Shown in pieces: positions 55,397 to 62,757 of a stretch of DNA of 64,000 bases. The translations under genes and the position numbers were made by a program. Source of the DNA: Escherichia phage ECML-134; sequence record JX128259. One strand, 5' to 3'. The notes below the pieces were generated by a model, which was not told the DNA's origin, made no database searches, and saw only the letters and a list, made by a program, of their open reading frames with translations. Position 1 is the first letter of the stretch, and each line of letters opens with the position of its first letter.

Positions 55397-56361
55397 TGTA
55401 TTCTTTAGAGGAATTTAATAATCAAGCAATAAACGCAGATTTCCAACGTAATAATATGTTTAGCTGCGTTTTTGCAACAACTCCATCAACTAAAAGCTCT
55501 TCGTTGATAAGTTCAATTAGCAACTTTTCTTATAATAACTTGGGCCTAAATTCAGATTGGTTAGGATTAACTCAAGGCGATATTAATCAGGGAATTACCA
55601 CGCTAATTACAGCTGGCACACAAAAACTGATAAGAAAATCAGGAGTTAGTAAATATCTTATTGGTGCCATGAGTCAACGTACAGTTCAAAGTTTATTAGG
55701 ATCATTTACAGTTGGTACATATTTAATTGACTTCTTTAACATGGCATATAACTCATCTGGATTGATGATATATTCTGTAAAAATGCCAGAGAATAGATTA
55801 TCCTATGAAACTGACTGGAACTACAACTCTCCTAATATTCGTATAACTGGGAGAGAATTAGACCCTTTGGTTATTTCATTTAGAATGGATTCAGAAGCTT
55901 GTAACTATCGTGCAATGCAAGACTGGGTTAACTCTGTTCAAGACCCAGTAACTGGATTACGTGCTTTGCCGCAAGATGTCGAGGCAGATATTCAGGTTAA
56001 TCTTCATTCTCGCAATGGATTACCTCATACTGCGGTGATGTTCACCGGATGCATTCCAATATCAGTGAGCGCTCCTGAGTTATCATATGATGGAGATAAC
56101 CAAATAACTACATTTGATGTTACTTTTGCGTACAGAGTGATGCAGGCTGGAGCAGTTGATAGGCAAGCTGCGCTTGAATGGCTTGAATCTGCTGCTATAA
56201 ATGGTATTCAAAGCGTTCTCGGAAATAGTGGAGGTGTTACTGGACTATCTAATTCGCTTTCACGACTTAGTAGATTAGGAGGAACTGCAGGAAGCATTTC
56301 AAACATTAATACTATGACAGGAATTGTCAATTCGCAGAGTAAAATATTAGGAGCAATATAA
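55396..56361 (+). CDS. 54: gp54 baseplate tail-tube initiator
   Basis: 321 aa; T4 order. Confidence 0.85.
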   Translation: MYSLEEFNNQAINADFQRNNMFSCVFATTPSTKSSSLISSISNFSYNNLGLNSDWLGLTQGDINQGITTLITAGTQKLIRKSGVSKYLIGAMSQRTVQSLLGSFTVGTYLIDFFNMAYNSSGLMIYSVKMPENRLSYETDWNYNSPNIRITGRELDPLVISFRMDSEACNYRAMQDWVNSVQDPVTGLRALPQDVEADIQVNLHSRNGLPHTAVMFTGCIPISVSAPELSYDGDNQITTFDVTFAYRVMQAGAVDRQAALEWLESAAINGIQSVLGNSGGVTGLSNSLSRLSRLGGTAGSISNINTMTGIVNSQSKILGAI

Positions 56362-56366
56362 CAATG

Positions 56367-56392
56367 GGGACCTTTCGGTCCCCATATTTTTA
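56367..56392. terminator. terminator hairpin between convergent gene 54 and 56390..56680
   Basis: GGGGACC-TTTCGG-TCCCC followed by a T-rich run. Confidence 0.55.
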
Positions 56393-56680
56393 TTTACGGA
56401 ATGAAATGAAAGCAGCAACTGAAGCAACTAAACTGTCTTCAATATAAACTTCAATTTTTACCGGAGCTTCTGACTCAAATTTACCTGTTACTACACCCTG
56501 AAAAATACTTTCAGTCTGTTCTGGCTTTGAAAAATTTTCAGAAGGAAAAATTCCGAACTTTTTATCTGTTCCAAAAATTTTGATAAATTCATCATAAACT
56601 GCTTCATTAAAAGCATTATCAGCAGGAATAACGCCTTCAACTACAAGTTCTTGACCTAAAAAGCGTAAAGAAGATTTCAT
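56390..56680 (-). CDS. hypothetical protein (alt-upstream ORF)
   Basis: 96 aa ORF. Confidence 0.55.
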   Translation of the reverse strand: MKSSLRFLGQELVVEGVIPADNAFNEAVYDEFIKIFGTDKKFGIFPSENFSKPEQTESIFQGVVTGKFESEAPVKIEVYIEDSLVASVAAFISFRK

Positions 56681-56740
56681 TTTGTGTTCCTCATGTTATG
56701 TCAGTAAGACTACTATAACACAACATAAGGAACTTGTAAA

Positions 56741-58804
56741 CTACATCTTGAACTTTTTAGACATTCCGTTGATGTTAACCAAAGAAGCTAAGATTTGAGA
56801 AACTTCGTTTTCCTCTTCTTTTGATTCTTCTACAAGGAATTGATTAAATCCAGCCATTGGACGAACTTCACCAGTTTCCATTAGATGGTCTCCATCATAT
56901 ACTGATTCTTCTAATTGTTCAGAAGGAGGAACGATTGTACCTTCGATTAGATACTTGTTATAAGCAGTTTCTTTCATAAAGTACGTACTTACTTTATTAA
57001 TCTTCAGTAAAATTCCACGCGGTAGAATAACTTCAGCTTCTGATGGAAATCCTGATAAATGACCTGGAACGATAACTTTGATTCGCTCAGCTCCTTTAAT
57101 TACCATACCCACGCTAGTTTCAGCATCTTCATTGGCATATGTAGAATGACTACCCATATGCATTAAATCTTCTGCATCAACGGAACCTTCTCCTTCGCCA
57201 GAAAATACTGCGCCGGAATCATCTAGAGCCATATAGTTTTTACCATGCTCACCGAAGATATTTGGTTTAAGTGATGTCGATACGAAGTTCTTGAAATAGA
57301 ACATTTTATTTTCAATGTTATGACGCAAAGTTTTAAAGGTAACTTCTTGTCCACGGTAAAGTGTAGTTCCTGGAGGAAGAACTGATCCTTTGGCAAAGGC
57401 AGAATCTAACGTCTCGATGTGCTTAATAGCTCGTTCCATGTATTCTTCACGGGTAGAATCTGGTTTACCCAAAAGGAACGAGTTCATTTCAACATATGAA
57501 TCTGCACAATAATCTTCAATTACATCAGATTCAGCCTGAGTCAGTCCTTTTGGAGTTACTTCGGTGCTTGCGTATTCATATGCCTGAGCAGCAGATTCAT
57601 TAATCAATTTATAAATGCCATTCATTACAAATTGAATAATAGCTGTCTTTTCATCTGACGTAGCTTTAGAACCTTTAACTAAATCATTGATAATTTTCTT
57701 AATAACATCAAAGCTATTAGAAATATTAATGTCAGCAAGATCGCTTAAAATTTTATCAGTTTTATAATCAAAGAATTCTTTATTCTTTAAATATTCTTGA
57801 GAACCTTGATATGTTATATCGCTCTGCAGCTTGATAGATGGATCGCGTAAACGTGCATGGGCTAATGCAATATGATTTCGGAAACTTTCTAGTTCATAAT
57901 CATTAGATTTAAAACGAGAAGCACTTCTCATACCACCGATAGCTCCTTTGCTGAAGTTTGAACCAATCTGGATAACGCCAGAGTTCATTGGTCCTTCTGC
58001 TTTATATACCGGAACTTTAGATTCAAACTCTTGATATTTCTTGGCAGCGAAGCTATCACCCTGAAGTGAAGCATCAACAGTAGAATATTGAGCTTGTGCT
58101 GCTAATCGACGACTAATTTTAGTTTTCTGAATAACAGCTTGATCAGTGCGCTTATCATTTTCTAAAGCAATAGAAGCAGCAACAGCGACAGCTTTAGGAA
58201 CAGCATTACCTGTTTTAACGTCTACATAAACATCACCAACCTTTGATTCAACTTTTGTGAATAACTCAGTTGAAATAGGAGGTACACCTGGAATGTCTTC
58301 TAAATTGGCATTTTTACGGTAAACCATAATATATGCATACTTTTTATCGTAATCCCAGAGTTCCTTAAGAAGGACGTATCTGCCACCTGAACGACTACGG
58401 ATAAGTCTATCAGCAATAACTTGAATTTGTCGAGCTTGGCCAGCAGTTTTAGACTTAAGAATACGAAGCATACAAGCATCAATTTTATATTGACGCATTG
58501 TTTGCATTGCAACAGTAAAAACTGAATTGATATAATTAATTGGGCTTGGACCAAGACCTTTTAATTTAGCAATTGAACCTTTAGCAGTTAATGTAAAAGG
58601 AACAATATGCATCATTTTGTCGCCCATTTTTAAATCGCGATTAGTATCACCTCCAGATGTATAGGTACATAAACGAAAGCCTGGTTGTTCAATTGCATCA
58701 TCAACATGAACTGAAAAAATTTGTGGTATTTTCTTCTTTGGATTTAAGTTTGTAATCGGAAGAGTAGTATCTTCGTCAAATAATTCTGTAATGAGTTCCA
58801 TCAT
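56741..58804 (-). CDS. alt: Alt, capsid-packaged ADP-ribosyltransferase
   Basis: 687 aa; position between gene 54 and gene 30 as in T4. Confidence 0.75.
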   Translation of the reverse strand: MMELITELFDEDTTLPITNLNPKKKIPQIFSVHVDDAIEQPGFRLCTYTSGGDTNRDLKMGDKMMHIVPFTLTAKGSIAKLKGLGPSPINYINSVFTVAMQTMRQYKIDACMLRILKSKTAGQARQIQVIADRLIRSRSGGRYVLLKELWDYDKKYAYIMVYRKNANLEDIPGVPPISTELFTKVESKVGDVYVDVKTGNAVPKAVAVAASIALENDKRTDQAVIQKTKISRRLAAQAQYSTVDASLQGDSFAAKKYQEFESKVPVYKAEGPMNSGVIQIGSNFSKGAIGGMRSASRFKSNDYELESFRNHIALAHARLRDPSIKLQSDITYQGSQEYLKNKEFFDYKTDKILSDLADINISNSFDVIKKIINDLVKGSKATSDEKTAIIQFVMNGIYKLINESAAQAYEYASTEVTPKGLTQAESDVIEDYCADSYVEMNSFLLGKPDSTREEYMERAIKHIETLDSAFAKGSVLPPGTTLYRGQEVTFKTLRHNIENKMFYFKNFVSTSLKPNIFGEHGKNYMALDDSGAVFSGEGEGSVDAEDLMHMGSHSTYANEDAETSVGMVIKGAERIKVIVPGHLSGFPSEAEVILPRGILLKINKVSTYFMKETAYNKYLIEGTIVPPSEQLEESVYDGDHLMETGEVRPMAGFNQFLVEESKEEENEVSQILASLVNINGMSKKFKM

Positions 58805-58853: not shown

Positions 58854-59042
58854 TTAATAATCTATTGGTAAGAGAGTACGATATATTTCAAACTTTGGAC
58901 CTTTTTCATAGGCATCAAATGTTTCTGTGAATTTATTATAAGCATATGCATCTATAAATTCAATCATGATTTGTGATACAGAAGTAGAAACATCTCCACC
59001 TTCTTTTTGAGCCACGACAATTGTTTCTAAGTAAGCTTTCAT
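58854..59042 (-). CDS. hypothetical small protein
   Basis: 62 aa ORF overlapping the gene 30 stop. Confidence 0.5.
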   Translation of the reverse strand: MKAYLETIVVAQKEGGDVSTSVSQIMIEFIDAYAYNKFTETFDAYEKGPKFEIYRTLLPIDY

Positions 59043-60502
59043 AAACCAGTTACCTCATGAAAATTACCAAATACATCCTCGAATGTATTAGCTTTAGTTT
59101 TATCTTCACGCAAACGAATCGCAATCGGAAGAAATAATTTAACGTAATCAGTGCGGCCATCAGATTTTAACCAACCGTTGCATTCGCACTCTAGAATTTT
59201 TCCAATATAATAATTTTGGTTTTCCATAATGCGAGTACGGTCAAGTTCATGCGATTTTACACCGGCTTTATCTTTTAAGCCTGAACCAGCATTTACTTTA
59301 ATTTTTCCACACTCTGACTCAAGAATAAATCCACCTGCTTTAGTAGGGTCTTTACGGTGAGGATAAATTCCTACAATTTTTAAATCAACATCAATTACTT
59401 CTTTAAATTTATAGAGATTTTTTGAACGAGCATTTTCCCATAATCCATCGATATTTTTGAGAATAATACCTTCAAGACCTTGGTCAATATACTTTTTATA
59501 AATTACCTTAGCTTCATCTAGGTTATTTACTATCTGGTTTTCAATTAAAATTACTTTATCATAGCCTGATGTCATTTGTTCTAGTTTAGAAAAACGTACA
59601 TCATATTTTAAACGAAATGCTGGAAGACCGTATATTTCTACTAATGGAACATAGTCCCAGACCTGAAACTTCATGCATTGTGCTTCTTTTTCAGAAATGG
59701 TTCCCTTTAAAGATTTATTAGCGATTCCATTAGAAGCAGTACGTGATTCAGCTACTTCGGCGAATTCTTTAGCTTTACTAATTTCAGGATAAGCATCAAA
59801 AAGAAAATCTAGGCCTTCTGGTTCCTTTTCAACTTGCTCATGGTATACCAATTCGCCATCAATTAATACACCTTCTGGATGAATCTGGCGGGCTTCAGCA
59901 GTCATTTTGATTAACTCTTCCTTAAGAAGATCTAATCCTAGATATTCATTGCCAGCTCGTGATAAAAGACGAACATCATCTAATTCATCACCTCTGACTT
60001 CGGCAAAGCACCGAGCTCCATCAGCTTTTAACTGGGCAAAGGCTGGAAATTTGATATTCTTATTAATGCCTTTTTCATCATAAGAACTTGCAAGCATTTG
60101 AGGTTGTTCAGGAATTAAACCTGGCCAAACTTTGTTCGCAATAGATACTGAAGCGCCACATTCAAGATCTCGCATCATCACTCGACGCAAAACTTCAACA
60201 TCATCTTTTTTACCATCGGTGATGTATCCAGTTAATTCCTCAATCGCCGCATTTCCAGTCAATTTCCGAGTAGCTAACGTGAATTCAATGAAGTCAAACA
60301 TATCGGTAAGAGTCAACATTCCAAAACTCTGGGTAGCAATACCAGGTTTAGGCCATTTCTTGATATAATACTGTAACCCACGAGAATAAGTCAGACGATA
60401 TACTCGTTTAAGCAATTCATTATCTTTATTCTTTTCAAGAATTGCTTGCTTCTGCTTAGTTGAACCAATAGATGCTATTTCGTTCAGAATTTTAAGAATC
60501 AT
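59039..60502 (-). CDS. 30: ATP-dependent DNA ligase gp30
   Basis: 487 aa; adenylation motif KADGARC; T4 order. Confidence 0.9.
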   Translation of the reverse strand: MILKILNEIASIGSTKQKQAILEKNKDNELLKRVYRLTYSRGLQYYIKKWPKPGIATQSFGMLTLTDMFDFIEFTLATRKLTGNAAIEELTGYITDGKKDDVEVLRRVMMRDLECGASVSIANKVWPGLIPEQPQMLASSYDEKGINKNIKFPAFAQLKADGARCFAEVRGDELDDVRLLSRAGNEYLGLDLLKEELIKMTAEARQIHPEGVLIDGELVYHEQVEKEPEGLDFLFDAYPEISKAKEFAEVAESRTASNGIANKSLKGTISEKEAQCMKFQVWDYVPLVEIYGLPAFRLKYDVRFSKLEQMTSGYDKVILIENQIVNNLDEAKVIYKKYIDQGLEGIILKNIDGLWENARSKNLYKFKEVIDVDLKIVGIYPHRKDPTKAGGFILESECGKIKVNAGSGLKDKAGVKSHELDRTRIMENQNYYIGKILECECNGWLKSDGRTDYVKLFLPIAIRLREDKTKANTFEDVFGNFHEVTGL

Positions 60503-60768
60503 TGTTCATCCTTTAGAGTTTGGTTTACAGCTCTATTATAAATCAATTCATCATTAAGCTCAGTCAAAGACCTGTGGTACGTGGTTCTAACTTTATTTCC
60601 TTGCATCCAGTGCTTGACGTAAATGAAACCTTGCTCTACACATTTTTTAAAAATTCGTTCGTCTTTTTGAGCTCGGAATTCTGGATTGCATCTAAAAAAT
60701 TGATTTACGTGACCGTAATCACGTGTAGTATTACCTTCATTTTCATAAATAGTGTGAACGACAAACAT
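60499..60768 (-). CDS. hypothetical protein (30.1-like)
   Basis: 89 aa ORF. Confidence 0.6.
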   Translation of the reverse strand: MFVVHTIYENEGNTTRDYGHVNQFFRCNPEFRAQKDERIFKKCVEQGFIYVKHWMQGNKVRTTYHRSLTELNDELIYNRAVNQTLKDEQ

Positions 60769-61622
60769 TAGAATGCTCCTTGGAAAATATTATCACCACT
60801 ACCACTAGTAAGTCTATTAAAATACCCTGCATCACCAGGCTTAATATAACTCCATGTATGGAATGGATGCATCTGATGTGAGTGCGTATAATATGGATGA
60901 TATGGATTATAAGGATTAAATCCAGGAGTTCTCCAGGTAGTGTTCCAACGAAAAGAATCGTTTTTAATCATCTTTTCAATTACATCTTTTATAGCTTTTT
61001 CACTATCAAAACTTTCTTTATTTTCCTTTGGTGGAAAAAGCTTATTCTCTACATCATTCCATGTATAAACTCGCTGAGCGGTTTTTGGAATACTGTCACG
61101 CTCCCCTCGAGCCATCCAATAAACAGGAACATTTAATATTTCACTTGCATGATCGCAGTGGTGAGCGAGATCGTCAATATAACAAATTACGTTATATTTC
61201 TCTTTTGCCTTTTTGAACAACTCTTCTTTTGAAGAATCATGACCACACATCAATACTTCTGAGAAGGCACCAGGAAAAAGAGCATTCAAATTAAATTGAC
61301 GATTCAGCAGAGCGTCAATAGAATCACCCAATGCTGTAACAGCTACAAAATTATAATCTTCTTTTAATTTGTTAATTACACACAGGGCATCTTTATATGG
61401 AGACAAGTAACGAATAAAATCTGAACGATTGTATTTTTCAATTAACTTGACGCCAAGTTCTTCATCACAATTAAAGAGTTTACCAGGAGAAATAAATTTC
61501 TCATCTTGGATCATTTTTAAAATATGTTCTAACGGAAGATTATATTTCTGAGCAAAATAAGGAAGGCCTGATTGCCAGCTTAAACATACTCCATCAATAT
61601 CAGTCAAAATAGTAGGCTTCAT
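60768..61622 (-). CDS. HAD-superfamily hydrolase-like protein (30.2-like) with His/Pro/Tyr-rich C-terminal tail
   Basis: 284 aa; HAD motif I ILTDIDGV near the N-terminus; tail NPYNPYHPYYTHSHQMHPFHTW. Confidence 0.6.
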   Translation of the reverse strand: MKPTILTDIDGVCLSWQSGLPYFAQKYNLPLEHILKMIQDEKFISPGKLFNCDEELGVKLIEKYNRSDFIRYLSPYKDALCVINKLKEDYNFVAVTALGDSIDALLNRQFNLNALFPGAFSEVLMCGHDSSKEELFKKAKEKYNVICYIDDLAHHCDHASEILNVPVYWMARGERDSIPKTAQRVYTWNDVENKLFPPKENKESFDSEKAIKDVIEKMIKNDSFRWNTTWRTPGFNPYNPYHPYYTHSHQMHPFHTWSYIKPGDAGYFNRLTSGSGDNIFQGAF

Positions 61623-62083
61623 AGAGAGTCTCTTAATAGGTTTAACACATCAATAAATTCAGCTTCGGTTAGTATTGTATCATCTTTTGTTAGACCACTA
61701 GCCATGCTGTGCTTCAAAACTTTTCCTTTTGAGGCTTGTAAGGCATCACGAAACCCCTTGTTTTGAATCGCTGCTTCAAAATATGCATTTGTATACAACT
61801 CTTTCCACGCTGGGGAGTATCTTGAAAATGGAACTCCCAGCCAGAAGAGGGTCCCACGGTCCTGAGCTCTTGCATAAGACCTTCCAGCTTGTTGGGCGGC
61901 AAGCCCGGATAACCCAAATATACGTCTTTGCTGCTCAACATTTTTCACCTTGCATCCTTGGAGGAATCCTTCGAGACCTCCAAATTGGATACCATCCATA
62001 ACAAAAGGCCATTGGGCGAAATTACTTAATGCGCATGATGGCCATCTAAAATTGCTTCTAATCTCTAACTCAGACATTTTCAA
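61619..62083 (-). CDS. NADAR-domain-like protein (30.3-like)
   Basis: 154 aa; LSNFAQWPFVMDGIQF...EGFLQ resembles remembered YbiA/NADAR core. Confidence 0.5.
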   Translation of the reverse strand: MKMSELEIRSNFRWPSCALSNFAQWPFVMDGIQFGGLEGFLQGCKVKNVEQQRRIFGLSGLAAQQAGRSYARAQDRGTLFWLGVPFSRYSPAWKELYTNAYFEAAIQNKGFRDALQASKGKVLKHSMASGLTKDDTILTEAEFIDVLNLLRDSL

Positions 62084-62276
62084 TACTTATAATTTCAACA
62101 TCAGCCCAATGACCATAGCAAGGAAGACGAAATTCAACTGGCCAGTTAGGGTCCTTTTCTAATATAATAGACTTAACTTGTGGTTCTTCATGTTCATCAG
62201 TATATGGATTTTTATCTGTTACTTTATATGTGACCTTAATGTACTGAATTCCAAAAATCTTATTAATTATATTCAT
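62070..62276 (-). CDS. hypothetical small protein
   Basis: 68 aa ORF in a tight minus-strand array. Confidence 0.5.
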   Translation of the reverse strand: MNIINKIFGIQYIKVTYKVTDKNPYTDEHEEPQVKSIILEKDPNWPVEFRLPCYGHWADVEIISIENV

Positions 62277-62470
62277 ACTAATTCCTTTAATCCGTAAATA
62301 GGAGATAATTCATCACCCATACGAAGGTCTTCATTTCCATCTACCCAGGAAACAATATAAGCCTCTTTTATTTGAACACCACTCCATTTAAATGGAGGTA
62401 GAACCTTAGAAATTAATCCAGGTATACCAACTCCCTTTAATTCAACAGTTTGACCTAAAAAGAATTTCAT
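62273..62470 (-). CDS. hypothetical small protein
   Basis: 65 aa ORF; overlaps the upstream stop. Confidence 0.5.
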   Translation of the reverse strand: MKFFLGQTVELKGVGIPGLISKVLPPFKWSGVQIKEAYIVSWVDGNEDLRMGDELSPIYGLKELV

Positions 62471-62757
62471 TAGAACCTCATCTGAAAGCCGTGTGATTTA
62501 ACATTACCACCGCCAATATCAGAAATGTTAATTTCACTCGCAATTGAAGGGTCAATGTCAATTTCACGATTGAGTTTAGTGATAGCTAAAGTATCACGCC
62601 CATTTACTGTACGGAATTCTAAAGGACAAACCACATCAACGTAATTTTTAATCGATTCACTAGTAGGTTGCAAATGAGCAGGAAGGTCTTTGGGCGCCTT
62701 TGAGAAAACCACTTCACAGAAATTTTTACGGGTATCAAAATAAGTAGTCATAAACAT
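62470..62757 (-). CDS. hypothetical protein
   Basis: 95 aa ORF. Confidence 0.55.
   Translation of the reverse strand: MFMTTYFDTRKNFCEVVFSKAPKDLPAHLQPTSESIKNYVDVVCPLEFRTVNGRDTLAITKLNREIDIDPSIASEINISDIGGGNVKSHGFQMRF

What the first reader, a model, noticed from the sequence alone, without database searches (positions are those of the whole stretch)
60768..62083. HAD-like hydrolase and NADAR-like protein encoded next to alt and DNA ligase
ORF 60768..61622 has a HAD motif I (ILTDIDGV) and an unusual His/Pro/Tyr-rich tail. ORF 61619..62083 has an LSNFAQWPF...DG core resembling NADAR/YbiA-type proteins, a family linked to ADP-ribose processing, but a Glu of the remembered E-H-Y-F-Q motif appears shifted, so catalytic status is unclear. 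Proximity to an ADP-ribosyltransferase suggests a possible nucleotide or ADP-ribose processing module.
Basis: inference. Interest (0 to 1): 0.45.

Follow-up and report, generated by a model that had tools for sequence, protein, structure and literature searches.

The report
T4 genes 30.2 and adfN
These are the T4-type phage genes 30.2, an uncharacterised phosphatase-like enzyme, and 30.3, the already characterised AdfN enzyme that strips ADP-ribose from phage DNA to defeat the bacterial DarTG1 defence, so the finding is correct but largely known.

Summary
Both ORFs are real. The window is a Tequatrovirus (T4-like phage), and the ORFs are T4 genes 30.2 and 30.3.

**Gene 30.3 (true ATG at 62077, 152 aa).** It is 151/152 identical to T4 gp30.3, which is AdfN. 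AdfN is a published NADAR-family DNA(guanine) ADP-ribosylglycohydrolase that neutralises the host DarTG1 defence. The Glu is not shifted: E36 and K43 sit in E-G-F-L-Q-x-x-K, which aligns with YbiA E-H-Y-F-Q-x-x-K. The real subgroup peculiarity is an invariant His123.

**Gene 30.2 (284 aa).** It has all four HAD motifs invariant (D8xD10, T96, K132, D150-D151), a confident C1-capped HAD fold and a disordered, indel-prone tail. Its nearest named family is NT5C (5'(3')-deoxyribonucleotidase). It passes no Pfam threshold and its substrate is unknown.

**The "module with alt" idea is not supported.**
- In published T4 transposon sequencing under DarTG1, only 30.3 and 30.4 are needed. Genes 30.2 and alt are neutral.
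- Across T4-like phages, 30.2 stays next to DNA ligase (73 of 78 loci) far more often than next to the NADAR gene (37 of 78).

Low novelty. The open residue is the substrate of gp30.2.

The parts
61619..62077 (-). Gene 30.3 = adfN, a NADAR-family DNA(guanine) ADP-ribosylglycohydrolase of 152 aa.
   Evidence: PF08010 E = 2.3e-70. 151/152 identical to T4 gp30.3. AlphaFold pLDDT 95.3. Foldseek top 3 are YbiA 2b3w, NADAR 8bat and 8bau. Function from PMC11825919.
61970..61972 (-). Codon of catalytic Glu36 of AdfN (GAA).
   Evidence: Invariant in 33 family members. Aligns with the Glu of YbiA SEHYFQ. E36A impairs T4 AdfN (PMC11825919).
61949..61951 (-). Codon of Lys43 of AdfN (AAG).
   Evidence: Conserved in at least 90% of family members. 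K43A impairs T4 AdfN.
61709..61711 (-). Codon of His123 (CAC), in the last beta-strand. This residue replaces the Glu/Asp of other NADARs in the phage gp30.3 subgroup.
   Evidence: Invariant in 33 sequences. Strand 120-122 in the model. The subgroup rule is stated in PMC11125620.
61619..61666 (-). C-terminal helix of AdfN (about aa 138-151) plus stop codon. It is intact here. The RB69 allele that lacks the last 15 residues is defective.
   Evidence: Helix 138-151 in the model. Full length as in T4. RB69 truncation described in PMC11825919.
60768..61622 (-). Gene 30.2, a 284-aa HAD-superfamily phosphatase-like protein. Its start ATG overlaps the adfN stop (ATGA).
61023..61622 (-). HAD core plus C1 cap (aa 1-200). 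The cap helices lie at about aa 16-86, between motifs I and II.
61590..61601 (-). HAD motif I, D8-I-D10-G11. Asp8 is the nucleophile and Asp10 the Asp+2 general acid/base.
   Evidence: D8, D10 and G11 are invariant in 35 homologues. D9 and D11 are invariant in 84 distant relatives.
61335..61337 (-). HAD motif II, Thr96.
   Evidence: Conserved in at least 90% of homologues.
61227..61229 (-). HAD motif III, Lys132.
   Evidence: Invariant.
61170..61175 (-). HAD motif IV, Asp150-Asp151 (Mg2+ ligands).
   Evidence: Invariant in 35 homologues. Codons GAC GAT read directly.
60771..61022 (-). Variable C-terminal extension of gp30.2 (aa 201-284). It has one helix (207-220) followed by a His/Pro/Tyr-rich disordered tail.
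   Evidence: pLDDT below 50 for aa 244-284. Tail length ranges 0-132 aa across homologues. In-frame indels versus T4.

Best explanation
The region holds two independent early genes of a T4-type phage. They are co-transcribed and translationally coupled inside the 30.6 -> alt.1 chain of overlapping genes.

**Gene 30.3 is adfN.** It is a small NADAR-fold enzyme that hydrolyses the N-glycosidic bond between ADP-ribose and guanine in phage DNA. This reverses the modification made by the host DarT1 toxin and lets replication proceed in DarTG1-carrying hosts. The function is shown experimentally for the T4 protein, which differs here by one conservative residue (I125M).

**Gene 30.2 encodes a Mg2+-dependent phosphomonoesterase of the HAD superfamily.**
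- It has an Asp8 nucleophile and an Asp10 acid/base.
- Its C1 cap closes over a small substrate.
- Its closest named relatives are the 5'(3')-deoxyribonucleotidases (NT5C), so the most likely substrate is a (deoxy)nucleoside monophosphate or a similar small phosphorylated nucleotide derivative. This is inferred, not shown.
- Its disordered tail probably carries a docking peptide in some lineages. This is also inferred.

**Relations between the genes.** The two genes do not depend on each other or on alt for DarTG1 resistance. The evolutionarily stable partner of 30.2 is the DNA ligase gene, not the NADAR gene.
For: **Identity**
- The region is 97-98% identical to Tequatrovirus genomes.
- Gene order matches T4: alt, alt.1, 30, 30.1, 30.2, 30.3, 30.4.

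**AdfN**
- PF08010 at 235 bits against a cut-off of 36.
- 151/152 identical to T4.
- E36, K43 and H123 conserved.
- Model pLDDT 95. The only credible PDB matches are YbiA and two NADARs, with probability 0.99-1.00. The family profile hits YbiA at E = 0.0055.
- Published genetics and biochemistry: PMC11825919 and PMC11125620.
- T4 Tn-seq under DarTG1 gives 30.3 log2FC -7.25, q = 0.

**gp30.2**
- Four HAD motifs invariant.
- Residues 1-200 are modelled with high confidence (ten-residue block means 81-98).
- The best sequence-profile hit in the PDB is mouse 5'(3')-deoxyribonucleotidase 2jao at E = 0.013. It aligns motif I and the cap, with the invariant W16 opposite its Phe.
- 35 of 84 distant family members hit Pfam NT5C, and these align to the gp30.2 profile at hhalign probability 100%.

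**Independence**
- Gene 30.2 is neutral under DarTG1 (log2FC -0.12, 71 TA sites) and in M9 (-0.10). It is non-essential on K-12, with 72 of 72 sites hit.
- Ligase lies within 5 kb of 30.2 in 73 of 78 loci. The NADAR gene does so in 37 of 78.
- HAD lies within 5 kb of the NADAR gene in about 21 of 80 NADAR loci.
Against: - The substrate of gp30.2 is not established. The window protein itself passes no Pfam or NCBIfam HAD or NT5C threshold.
- The lack of a Tn-seq phenotype could hide redundancy.
- AdfN(T4) reportedly needs some T-even-specific factor that remains unidentified. Essential genes cannot be scored by Tn-seq.
- The HIDEN-SEQ data come from a preprint.
- The ligase linkage is seen almost only inside the T4 superfamily, where vertical synteny inflates such counts.
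Confidence: 0.8

Rival explanations
1. One reading: 30.2, 30.3 and the nearby alt ADP-ribosyltransferase form one ADP-ribose or nucleotide processing module. For example, the NADAR enzyme would reverse or tidy up Alt products and the HAD enzyme would dephosphorylate the released ADP-ribose derivatives.
For: - The genes lie on one strand within 5.3 kb.
- In 37 of 78 loci the NADAR gene is within 5 kb upstream of the HAD gene.
Against: - The demonstrated AdfN substrate is guanine-ADP-ribose in DNA made by host DarT1, whereas Alt modifies host proteins.
- Under DarTG1, alt insertions are neutral (log2FC -0.01) and 30.2 insertions are neutral (-0.12).
- In many T4-like genomes 30.3 sits about 57 kb from 30.2, ligase and alt. 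The same IMG/VR contigs appear, for example 2974666281, 2974736276 and 638275429.
- alt is on the opposite strand in several loci.
Confidence: 0.05
2. gp30.2 is the unidentified T-even-specific helper that AdfN(T4) needs for full activity in vivo.
For: - AdfN(T4) works in RB69 infection but not in uninfected cells or in T5 or Bas25 infection.
- 30.3 and 30.2 overlap by ATGA.
- The two genes have near-identical host-genus distributions in phage records.
Against: - In T4 Tn-seq under DarTG1, 71 TA sites in 30.2 give log2FC -0.12, p = 0.61. Only 2 genes are significant genome-wide, 30.3 and 30.4.
- Adjacency is lost in many T4-like genera.
Confidence: 0.04
3. gp30.2 works with the gp30 DNA ligase. 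It could be a nick- or end-cleaning 3'-phosphatase, or it could remove a nucleotide by-product of ligation or repair. The variable tail would dock it to a replication or repair protein.
For: - Ligase lies within 5 kb in 73 of 78 gp30.2 loci and is usually immediately downstream.
- The pair persists with the order inverted and with different neighbours (EndoVII, PhoH, UvsY) in L156-L158 and L161.
- Where ligase is absent, the gene sits among gp32, gp59, UvsX, dCMP deaminase and PD-(D/E)XK nuclease genes.
- A semi-conserved C-terminal peptide, G-T-G-I-E-Y-L-x-x-Q-P-T, occurs in 8 of 35 homologues.
Against: - A roughly 70-residue C1 cap normally excludes macromolecular substrates, and DNA 3'-phosphatases of the HAD family are capless (established HAD knowledge).
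- Ligase is essential in T4 while 30.2 is fully dispensable.
- Synteny within one virus superfamily is weak evidence.
- The docking motif is degenerate in this very phage.
Confidence: 0.15

Closest known systems
T4 AdfN (gp30.3), anti-DarT factor NADAR (PMC11825919; in vitro activity in PMC11125620)
   Same: 151 of 152 residues identical. Same length, same genomic position, same catalytic E36, K43 and H123, and an intact C-terminal helix.
   Different: One substitution, I125M. Both residues are common in the family. No experiment has been done on this particular phage.
DarG1-type NADAR antitoxins and E. coli YbiA (PDB 8bat, 8bau, 2b3w)
   Same: Same fold (Foldseek probability 0.99-1.00, TM 0.56-0.66). 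Same Glu...Gln..Lys active-site segment. Same chemistry on guanine-ADP-ribose.
   Different: Only 15-18% identity. His replaces the Glu (YbiA) or Asp (DarT-linked) of the last strand. It is an orphan gene with no cognate toxin. It does not work as an antitoxin in uninfected cells.
NT5C family 5'(3')-deoxyribonucleotidases (Pfam PF06941; PDB 2jao, 2i7d, 3bwv)
   Same: HAD core with a helical C1 cap of similar size and a DxDG motif. An aromatic residue 8 positions after the nucleophile (W16 against Phe) aligns. This is the best sequence-profile hit in the PDB. Distant members of the gp30.2 family score above the NT5C cut-off, for example P0372 at 36.8 bits against 24.8.
   Different: The window protein itself has no NT5C hit at E <= 1. 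Identity to solved members is 14-20%. It carries an 84-residue extra tail. No activity is known.
T4 polynucleotide kinase/3'-phosphatase (PseT), HAD domain
   Different: The Pnk phosphatase is capless and acts on polynucleotide ends. gp30.2 has a C1 cap and no kinase domain.

Membership tests
NADAR superfamily (YbiA fold) | [quoted passage not shown] | tested here: met
   The model has pLDDT 95.3 and pTM 0.90, with five main helices of 7-17 residues plus small strand pairs. The top three PDB matches are YbiA 2b3w, NADAR 8bat and 8bau. All other matches have probability <= 0.04.
NADAR superfamily (YbiA fold) | Conserved catalytic Glu and Lys in the E-x-x-x-Q-x-x-K segment | tested here: met
   E36 and Q40 are invariant and K43 is conserved in at least 90% of 33 relatives. 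They align with YbiA S-E-H-Y-F-Q-A-Q-K. E36A and K43A impair T4 AdfN.
NADAR superfamily (YbiA fold) | [quoted passage not shown] | tested here: met
   H123 is invariant and sits at predicted strand 120-122. The His rule for the phage group is from PMC11125620. A residue-level superposition was not available.
NADAR superfamily (YbiA fold) | Match to the Pfam NADAR model PF08719 | tested here: inconclusive
   The window protein hits only the sister model PF08010. Four of the 120 listed relatives carry both PF08010 and PF08719. Clan membership was not checked.
NADAR superfamily (YbiA fold) | Hydrolysis of guanine-linked ADP-ribose on DNA | not testable with these tools
   Shown in vitro and in vivo for the T4 protein, which is 99% identical.
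AdfN / Pfam PF08010 Phage_30_3 | Full-length match above the curated cut-off | tested here: met
   235.2 bits against a cut-off of 36, covering profile positions 1-138 of 138.
AdfN / Pfam PF08010 Phage_30_3 | Intact C-terminal helix (the allele truncated by 15 aa in RB69 is defective) | tested here: met
   152 aa ending ...LLRDSL as in T4. Helix 138-151 in the model.
HAD superfamily phosphatases | Motif I DxD (nucleophile and Asp+2), motif II Thr/Ser, motif III Lys, motif IV DD | tested here: met
   D8, D10, K132, D150 and D151 are invariant and T96 is conserved in at least 90% of 35 homologues. The same pattern holds in 84 distant relatives.
HAD superfamily phosphatases | Rossmannoid core with a cap inserted after motif I (C1 type) | tested here: met
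HAD superfamily phosphatases | Match to a Pfam HAD model above its cut-off | tested here: inconclusive
   No hit for the window protein. Among 35 homologues, 9 hit PF00702 and 6 hit PF13419 at E<=1 (best E = 3.5e-4); whether any reaches the curated cut-off was not reported for these hits. The family is too divergent for these models.
NT5C 5'(3')-deoxyribonucleotidases (PF06941) | Match to PF06941 above its cut-off | tested here: not met
   No hit for the window protein at E <= 1. 5 of 35 close homologues hit at E <= 1. 35 of 84 distant relatives hit at E <= 1e-3. It is therefore a neighbouring family, not a member.
NT5C 5'(3')-deoxyribonucleotidases (PF06941) | Aromatic base-stacking residue 8 positions after the nucleophile | tested here: inconclusive
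   The invariant W16 aligns with the Phe of DGVLADF in 2jao. The stacking role of that Phe is recalled from the mdN/cdN literature and was not checked here.
NT5C 5'(3')-deoxyribonucleotidases (PF06941) | dNMP phosphatase activity | not testable with these tools
   No biochemical data were found. 'gp30.2' occurs in no searchable paper.
   In published T4 Tn-seq under DarTG1, 30.3 has log2FC -7.25 (q = 0), 30.2 has -0.12 (q = 1) and alt has -0.01 (q = 1).
   HAD lies within 5 kb of the NADAR gene in about 21 of 80 NADAR loci. The NADAR gene lies within 5 kb of HAD in 37 of 78 loci, against 73 of 78 for ligase.

The most novel reading that the evidence does not exclude
gp30.2 is a dedicated, ligase-linked nucleotide phosphatase of T4-like phages with a specific but so far unseen role. 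It might destroy a nucleotide-derived host immune signal or toxic nucleotide, or clean up a product of DNA repair or ligation. Its variable tail would dock it to the replication or repair machinery. It appears dispensable only because laboratory K-12 lacks the relevant challenge.
Probability: 0.15. Interest if true: 0.55.

Novelty: already known. Interest (0 to 1): 0.2.

Why it matters
The NADAR gene is a textbook-in-the-making example of a phage that co-opted an orphan antitoxin-like enzyme to undo DNA ADP-ribosylation by DarTG1. Finding it intact here only tells us that this phage should resist DarTG1.

The remaining open point is modest. gp30.2 is a catalytically intact HAD phosphatase present in about 1450 sequenced T4-like phages. 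It is almost always beside the DNA ligase gene, it has no known substrate, and it shows no phenotype in LB, in M9 or under DarTG1. Identifying its substrate could add one enzyme to phage nucleotide or repair metabolism, or to counter-defence.

Tried and rejected
1. **gp30.2 as the missing T-even helper of AdfN.** The ATGA overlap and matching host-genus distribution looked attractive. I rejected it because 30.2 insertions are neutral under DarTG1 and the adjacency is not conserved.
2. **The internal +1-frame ORF 30.3' (61714-61941) as a real overlapping gene.** It stays open for 76 codons in 14 of 15 sequences down to 79% nucleotide identity. Synonymous recoding of adfN gives an equally long open frame in 13-22% of trials, so this is not evidence of a gene.
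4. **Fusion partners of gp30.2 relatives (Rosetta-stone approach).** The longer relatives P0232, P0270, P0280, P0343 and P0107 have no recognisable extra Pfam domain.
5. **Literature on gp30.2.** There are no occurrences of 'gp30.2', and 'gene 30.2' appears only in the AdfN paper's figure legend.
6. **Promoter and terminator scan of 56-64 kb.** Counts are no higher than in shuffled sequence.
7. **NCBIfam.** It gave nothing for either protein apart from a noise-level thiamine diphosphokinase hit.
Full report
**What is there**

The window is a T4-like phage. The 1.9 kb around the finding is 97-98% identical to many Tequatrovirus genomes. On the minus strand the gene order is alt (56741-58804), alt.1, gene 30 DNA ligase (59039-60502), 30.1 (DUF3045), 30.2, 30.3, 30.4, and so on. 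This is exactly the order in T4.

The two ORFs of the finding are therefore T4 genes 30.2 (60768-61622, 284 aa) and 30.3. T4 annotation and the published residue numbering use the ATG at 62077, giving 152 aa. That ATG overlaps the stop of 30.4 (ATGTCTGA).

Other junctions in the chain also overlap:
- The 30.3 stop overlaps the 30.2 start (ATGA).
- The 30.2 stop overlaps the 30.1 start (TAATG).
- 30.1 overlaps gene 30 by 4 nt.

The genes thus sit in one tightly packed, translationally coupled chain. A consensus promoter and terminator scan found nothing above shuffled expectation.

**Gene 30.3 is adfN, a known NADAR enzyme**

Evidence from sequence and structure:
- The protein matches Pfam PF08010 (Phage_30_3) at 235 bits against a cut-off of 36.
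- It is 151/152 identical to T4 gp30.3.
- An AlphaFold model built on 33 relatives has pLDDT 95.3.
- The model's top three PDB matches are E. coli YbiA (2b3w), Geobacter lovleyi NADAR (8bat) and Phytophthora NADAR with ADP-ribose (8bau). Foldseek probabilities are 0.99-1.00, and every other match has probability <= 0.04.
- The family profile also finds YbiA by sequence at E = 0.0055.

Evidence from the literature:
- The Nature Communications paper PMC11825919 renamed T4 30.3 as adfN (anti-DarT factor NADAR).
- It showed that adfN is necessary and sufficient for resistance of T-even phages to the DarTG1 defence.
- It showed that the purified protein removes ADP-ribose from DarT1-modified DNA, that E36A and K43A impair it, and that the RB69 allele lacking the last 15 residues is defective.
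- PMC11125620 showed independently that gp30.3 hydrolyses guanine-linked but not thymine-linked ADP-ribose. It also notes that phage gp30.3 proteins carry a His where YbiA has Glu and DarT-linked NADARs have Asp, in the last strand.

In the window protein E36, K43 and H123 are all present and conserved across 33 relatives down to 35% identity. The C-terminal helix is intact. The single difference from T4 (I125M) is a substitution seen elsewhere in the family.

GLEGFLQGCK aligns position for position with YbiA's TSEHYFQAQK.

**Gene 30.2 is a divergent but catalytically complete HAD phosphatase**

Single-sequence scans give no Pfam or NCBIfam HAD hit. PHROGs gives only phrog_420, of unknown function. 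The HAD assignment rests on three other lines:

1. *Motifs.* An alignment of 35 homologues from many T4-like genera shows all four HAD motifs essentially invariant (T96 conserved in at least 90%, the other motif residues in all 35). These are D8-x-D10-G11 (nucleophile plus the Asp+2 that marks phosphatases and mutases), T96, K132 and D150-D151.
2. *Model.* The AlphaFold model is confident over residues 1-200. It shows a Rossmannoid core with a helical C1 cap (helices 16-86). One further helix (207-220) and a disordered tail (pLDDT below 50 for 244-284) follow.

Sequence relations are more informative about the nearest family:
- The best profile hit in the PDB is mouse cytosolic 5'(3')-deoxyribonucleotidase (2jao, E = 0.013). 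It aligns motif I and the cap, with the invariant W16 opposite the enzyme's Phe.
- An exhaustive HMMER search found 1484 cluster representatives at E <= 1e-3.
- Of 84 of the more distant representatives, 35 hit Pfam NT5C (PF06941; best E = 4.2e-10, with P0372 above the cut-off).
- These distant members align to the gp30.2 profile with hhalign probability 100% over 194 columns.

gp30.2 is thus a sister group of the NT5C deoxyribonucleotidases but not a scoring member. I infer a small nucleotide-like phosphomonoester as substrate. This is inference only.

**The tail**

Residues 223-262 are 40% His+Pro+Tyr against 12% in the core. Among homologues the extension beyond the core ranges from 0 to 132 residues. 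Relative to T4 and teqhad it differs by in-frame indels of 15, 3 and 6 nt.

Eight of 35 homologues from several genera share a C-terminal peptide, G-T-G-I-E-Y-L-x-x-Q-P-T. In this phage the peptide is degenerate (GDAGYFNRLTSGS). A docking function is possible but untested.

**Are the genes a module, and is alt involved?**

Three lines of evidence say no.

1. *Biochemistry.* AdfN's substrate is made by the host toxin DarT1 on DNA guanines, whereas Alt ADP-ribosylates host proteins.
2. *Genetics.* The HIDEN-SEQ preprint (10.1101/2025.11.20.689424) reports a saturated T4 transposon library challenged with DarTG1. Its sheet S6 lists only two significant genes.

| Gene | log2FC under DarTG1 | q |
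|---|---|---|
| 30.3 | -7.25 | 0 |
| 30.4 | -1.79 | 0.014 |
| 30.2 (71 TA sites) | -0.12 | 1 |
| alt | -0.01 | 1 |

   Gene 30.2 is also non-essential on K-12 (72 of 72 sites hit) and neutral in M9 against LB (-0.10).
3. *Comparative genomics.*
   - Both genes occur in about 1450-1500 phage records with the same host-genus profile.
   - Among 80 gp30.3-family loci, only about 21 have a gp30.2 homologue within 5 kb.
   - Several complete T4-like genomes carry the two genes about 57 kb apart. The same contigs appear.
   - By contrast, 73 of 78 gp30.2 loci have the DNA ligase gene within 5 kb, and only 37 have the NADAR gene.
   - The ligase-HAD pair persists even where the order is inverted and the neighbours differ: ligase, two small ORFs, HAD, UvsY, preceded by EndoVII and PhoH (L161, L156-L158).
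   - Where no ligase is found, the HAD gene still sits among replication, recombination and nucleotide genes: gp32, gp59, a PD-(D/E)XK nuclease, UvsX and dCMP deaminase.

This makes ligase, not NADAR or alt, the stable neighbour. Because almost all loci belong to one virus superfamily, I treat this only as a lead.

**A hypothesis I raised and then rejected**

The AdfN paper notes that AdfN(T4) is fully active only during T-even infection and may need another T-even protein. The overlapping downstream gene 30.2 was an obvious candidate, but the Tn-seq data argue clearly against it.

The only other hit under DarTG1, 30.4, lies immediately upstream and overlaps the adfN start. A polar or translational-coupling effect is the simplest reading, though a real helper role is not excluded.

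**Verdict**

- The family assignments are right.
- The uncertainty about catalytic residues is resolved in favour of an active enzyme.
- The proposed link to alt is not supported.
- The NADAR gene is already characterised. "HAD-like hydrolase" already appears as an annotation for 30.2 in some GenBank records, such as HY01 and teqhad.
- What remains unknown is the substrate and role of gp30.2.

Noticed in passing
window 61714-61941 (-): A 75-codon ATG ORF lies in the +1 frame inside adfN, corresponding to T4's annotated 30.3'. It stays open for 76 codons in 14 of 15 sequences checked (window included) down to 79% nucleotide identity, although its ATG is lost in some. Synonymous recoding of adfN yields an equally long open frame in 13-22% of trials, so the open frame alone is not evidence of a gene.
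   Followed up: yes
window 62070-62276 (-), gene 30.4: In the published T4 Tn-seq under DarTG1, 30.4 is the only gene besides adfN that is significantly depleted (log2FC -1.79, q = 0.014). It overlaps the adfN start by 8 nt, so a polar or coupling effect is likely. It could also be the unidentified T-even helper of AdfN.
   Followed up: partly
window 58854-62757 (-): There is an unbroken chain of start/stop overlaps running 30.6/30.5/30.4/30.3/30.2/30.1/30/alt.1, using ATGA, TAATG and ATGTCTGA junctions. This indicates translational coupling through the whole block.
   Followed up: partly
window 60771-60850 (-), C-terminus of gp30.2: A peptide G-T-G-I-E-Y-L-x-x-Q-P-T recurs near the C-terminus of gp30.2 homologues from several genera (8 of 35). 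It is GGIEYLYNRPT in T4 but degenerate here (GDAGYFNRLTSGS). It may be a docking motif that is being lost in this lineage.
   Followed up: partly
loci L156-L158, L161 and L083-L160: Across T4-like phages the gp30.2 HAD gene is within 5 kb of the ATP-dependent DNA ligase gene in 73 of 78 loci. This includes loci where the order is inverted and the neighbours are EndoVII, PhoH and UvsY.
   Followed up: partly
proteins P0134, P0220, P0225 and loci L018-L082: The PF08010 (gp30.3-type) NADAR family is much wider than T4-like phages. There are 4151 hits at E <= 1e-3. These include a protein on a 995-kb Bacteroides contig and non-T4 phages of Caulobacter, Brevundimonas, Rhizobium, Desulfovibrio and Ralstonia, none with a gp30.2 neighbour.
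   Followed up: partly
window 56364-56385 (both strands): A perfect 9-bp GC-rich hairpin with T-runs on both sides lies between the converging gene ending at 56361 (+) and alt.-3 (56390-56680, -). It looks like a bidirectional intrinsic terminator.
   Followed up: no
window 56390-58804 (-) compared with L002 and L001: This phage has a single alt gene directly followed by alt.-3. T4 carries the alt.-1/alt.-2 remnants of a partial alt duplication, and phage teqhad carries two full alt paralogues.
   Followed up: no
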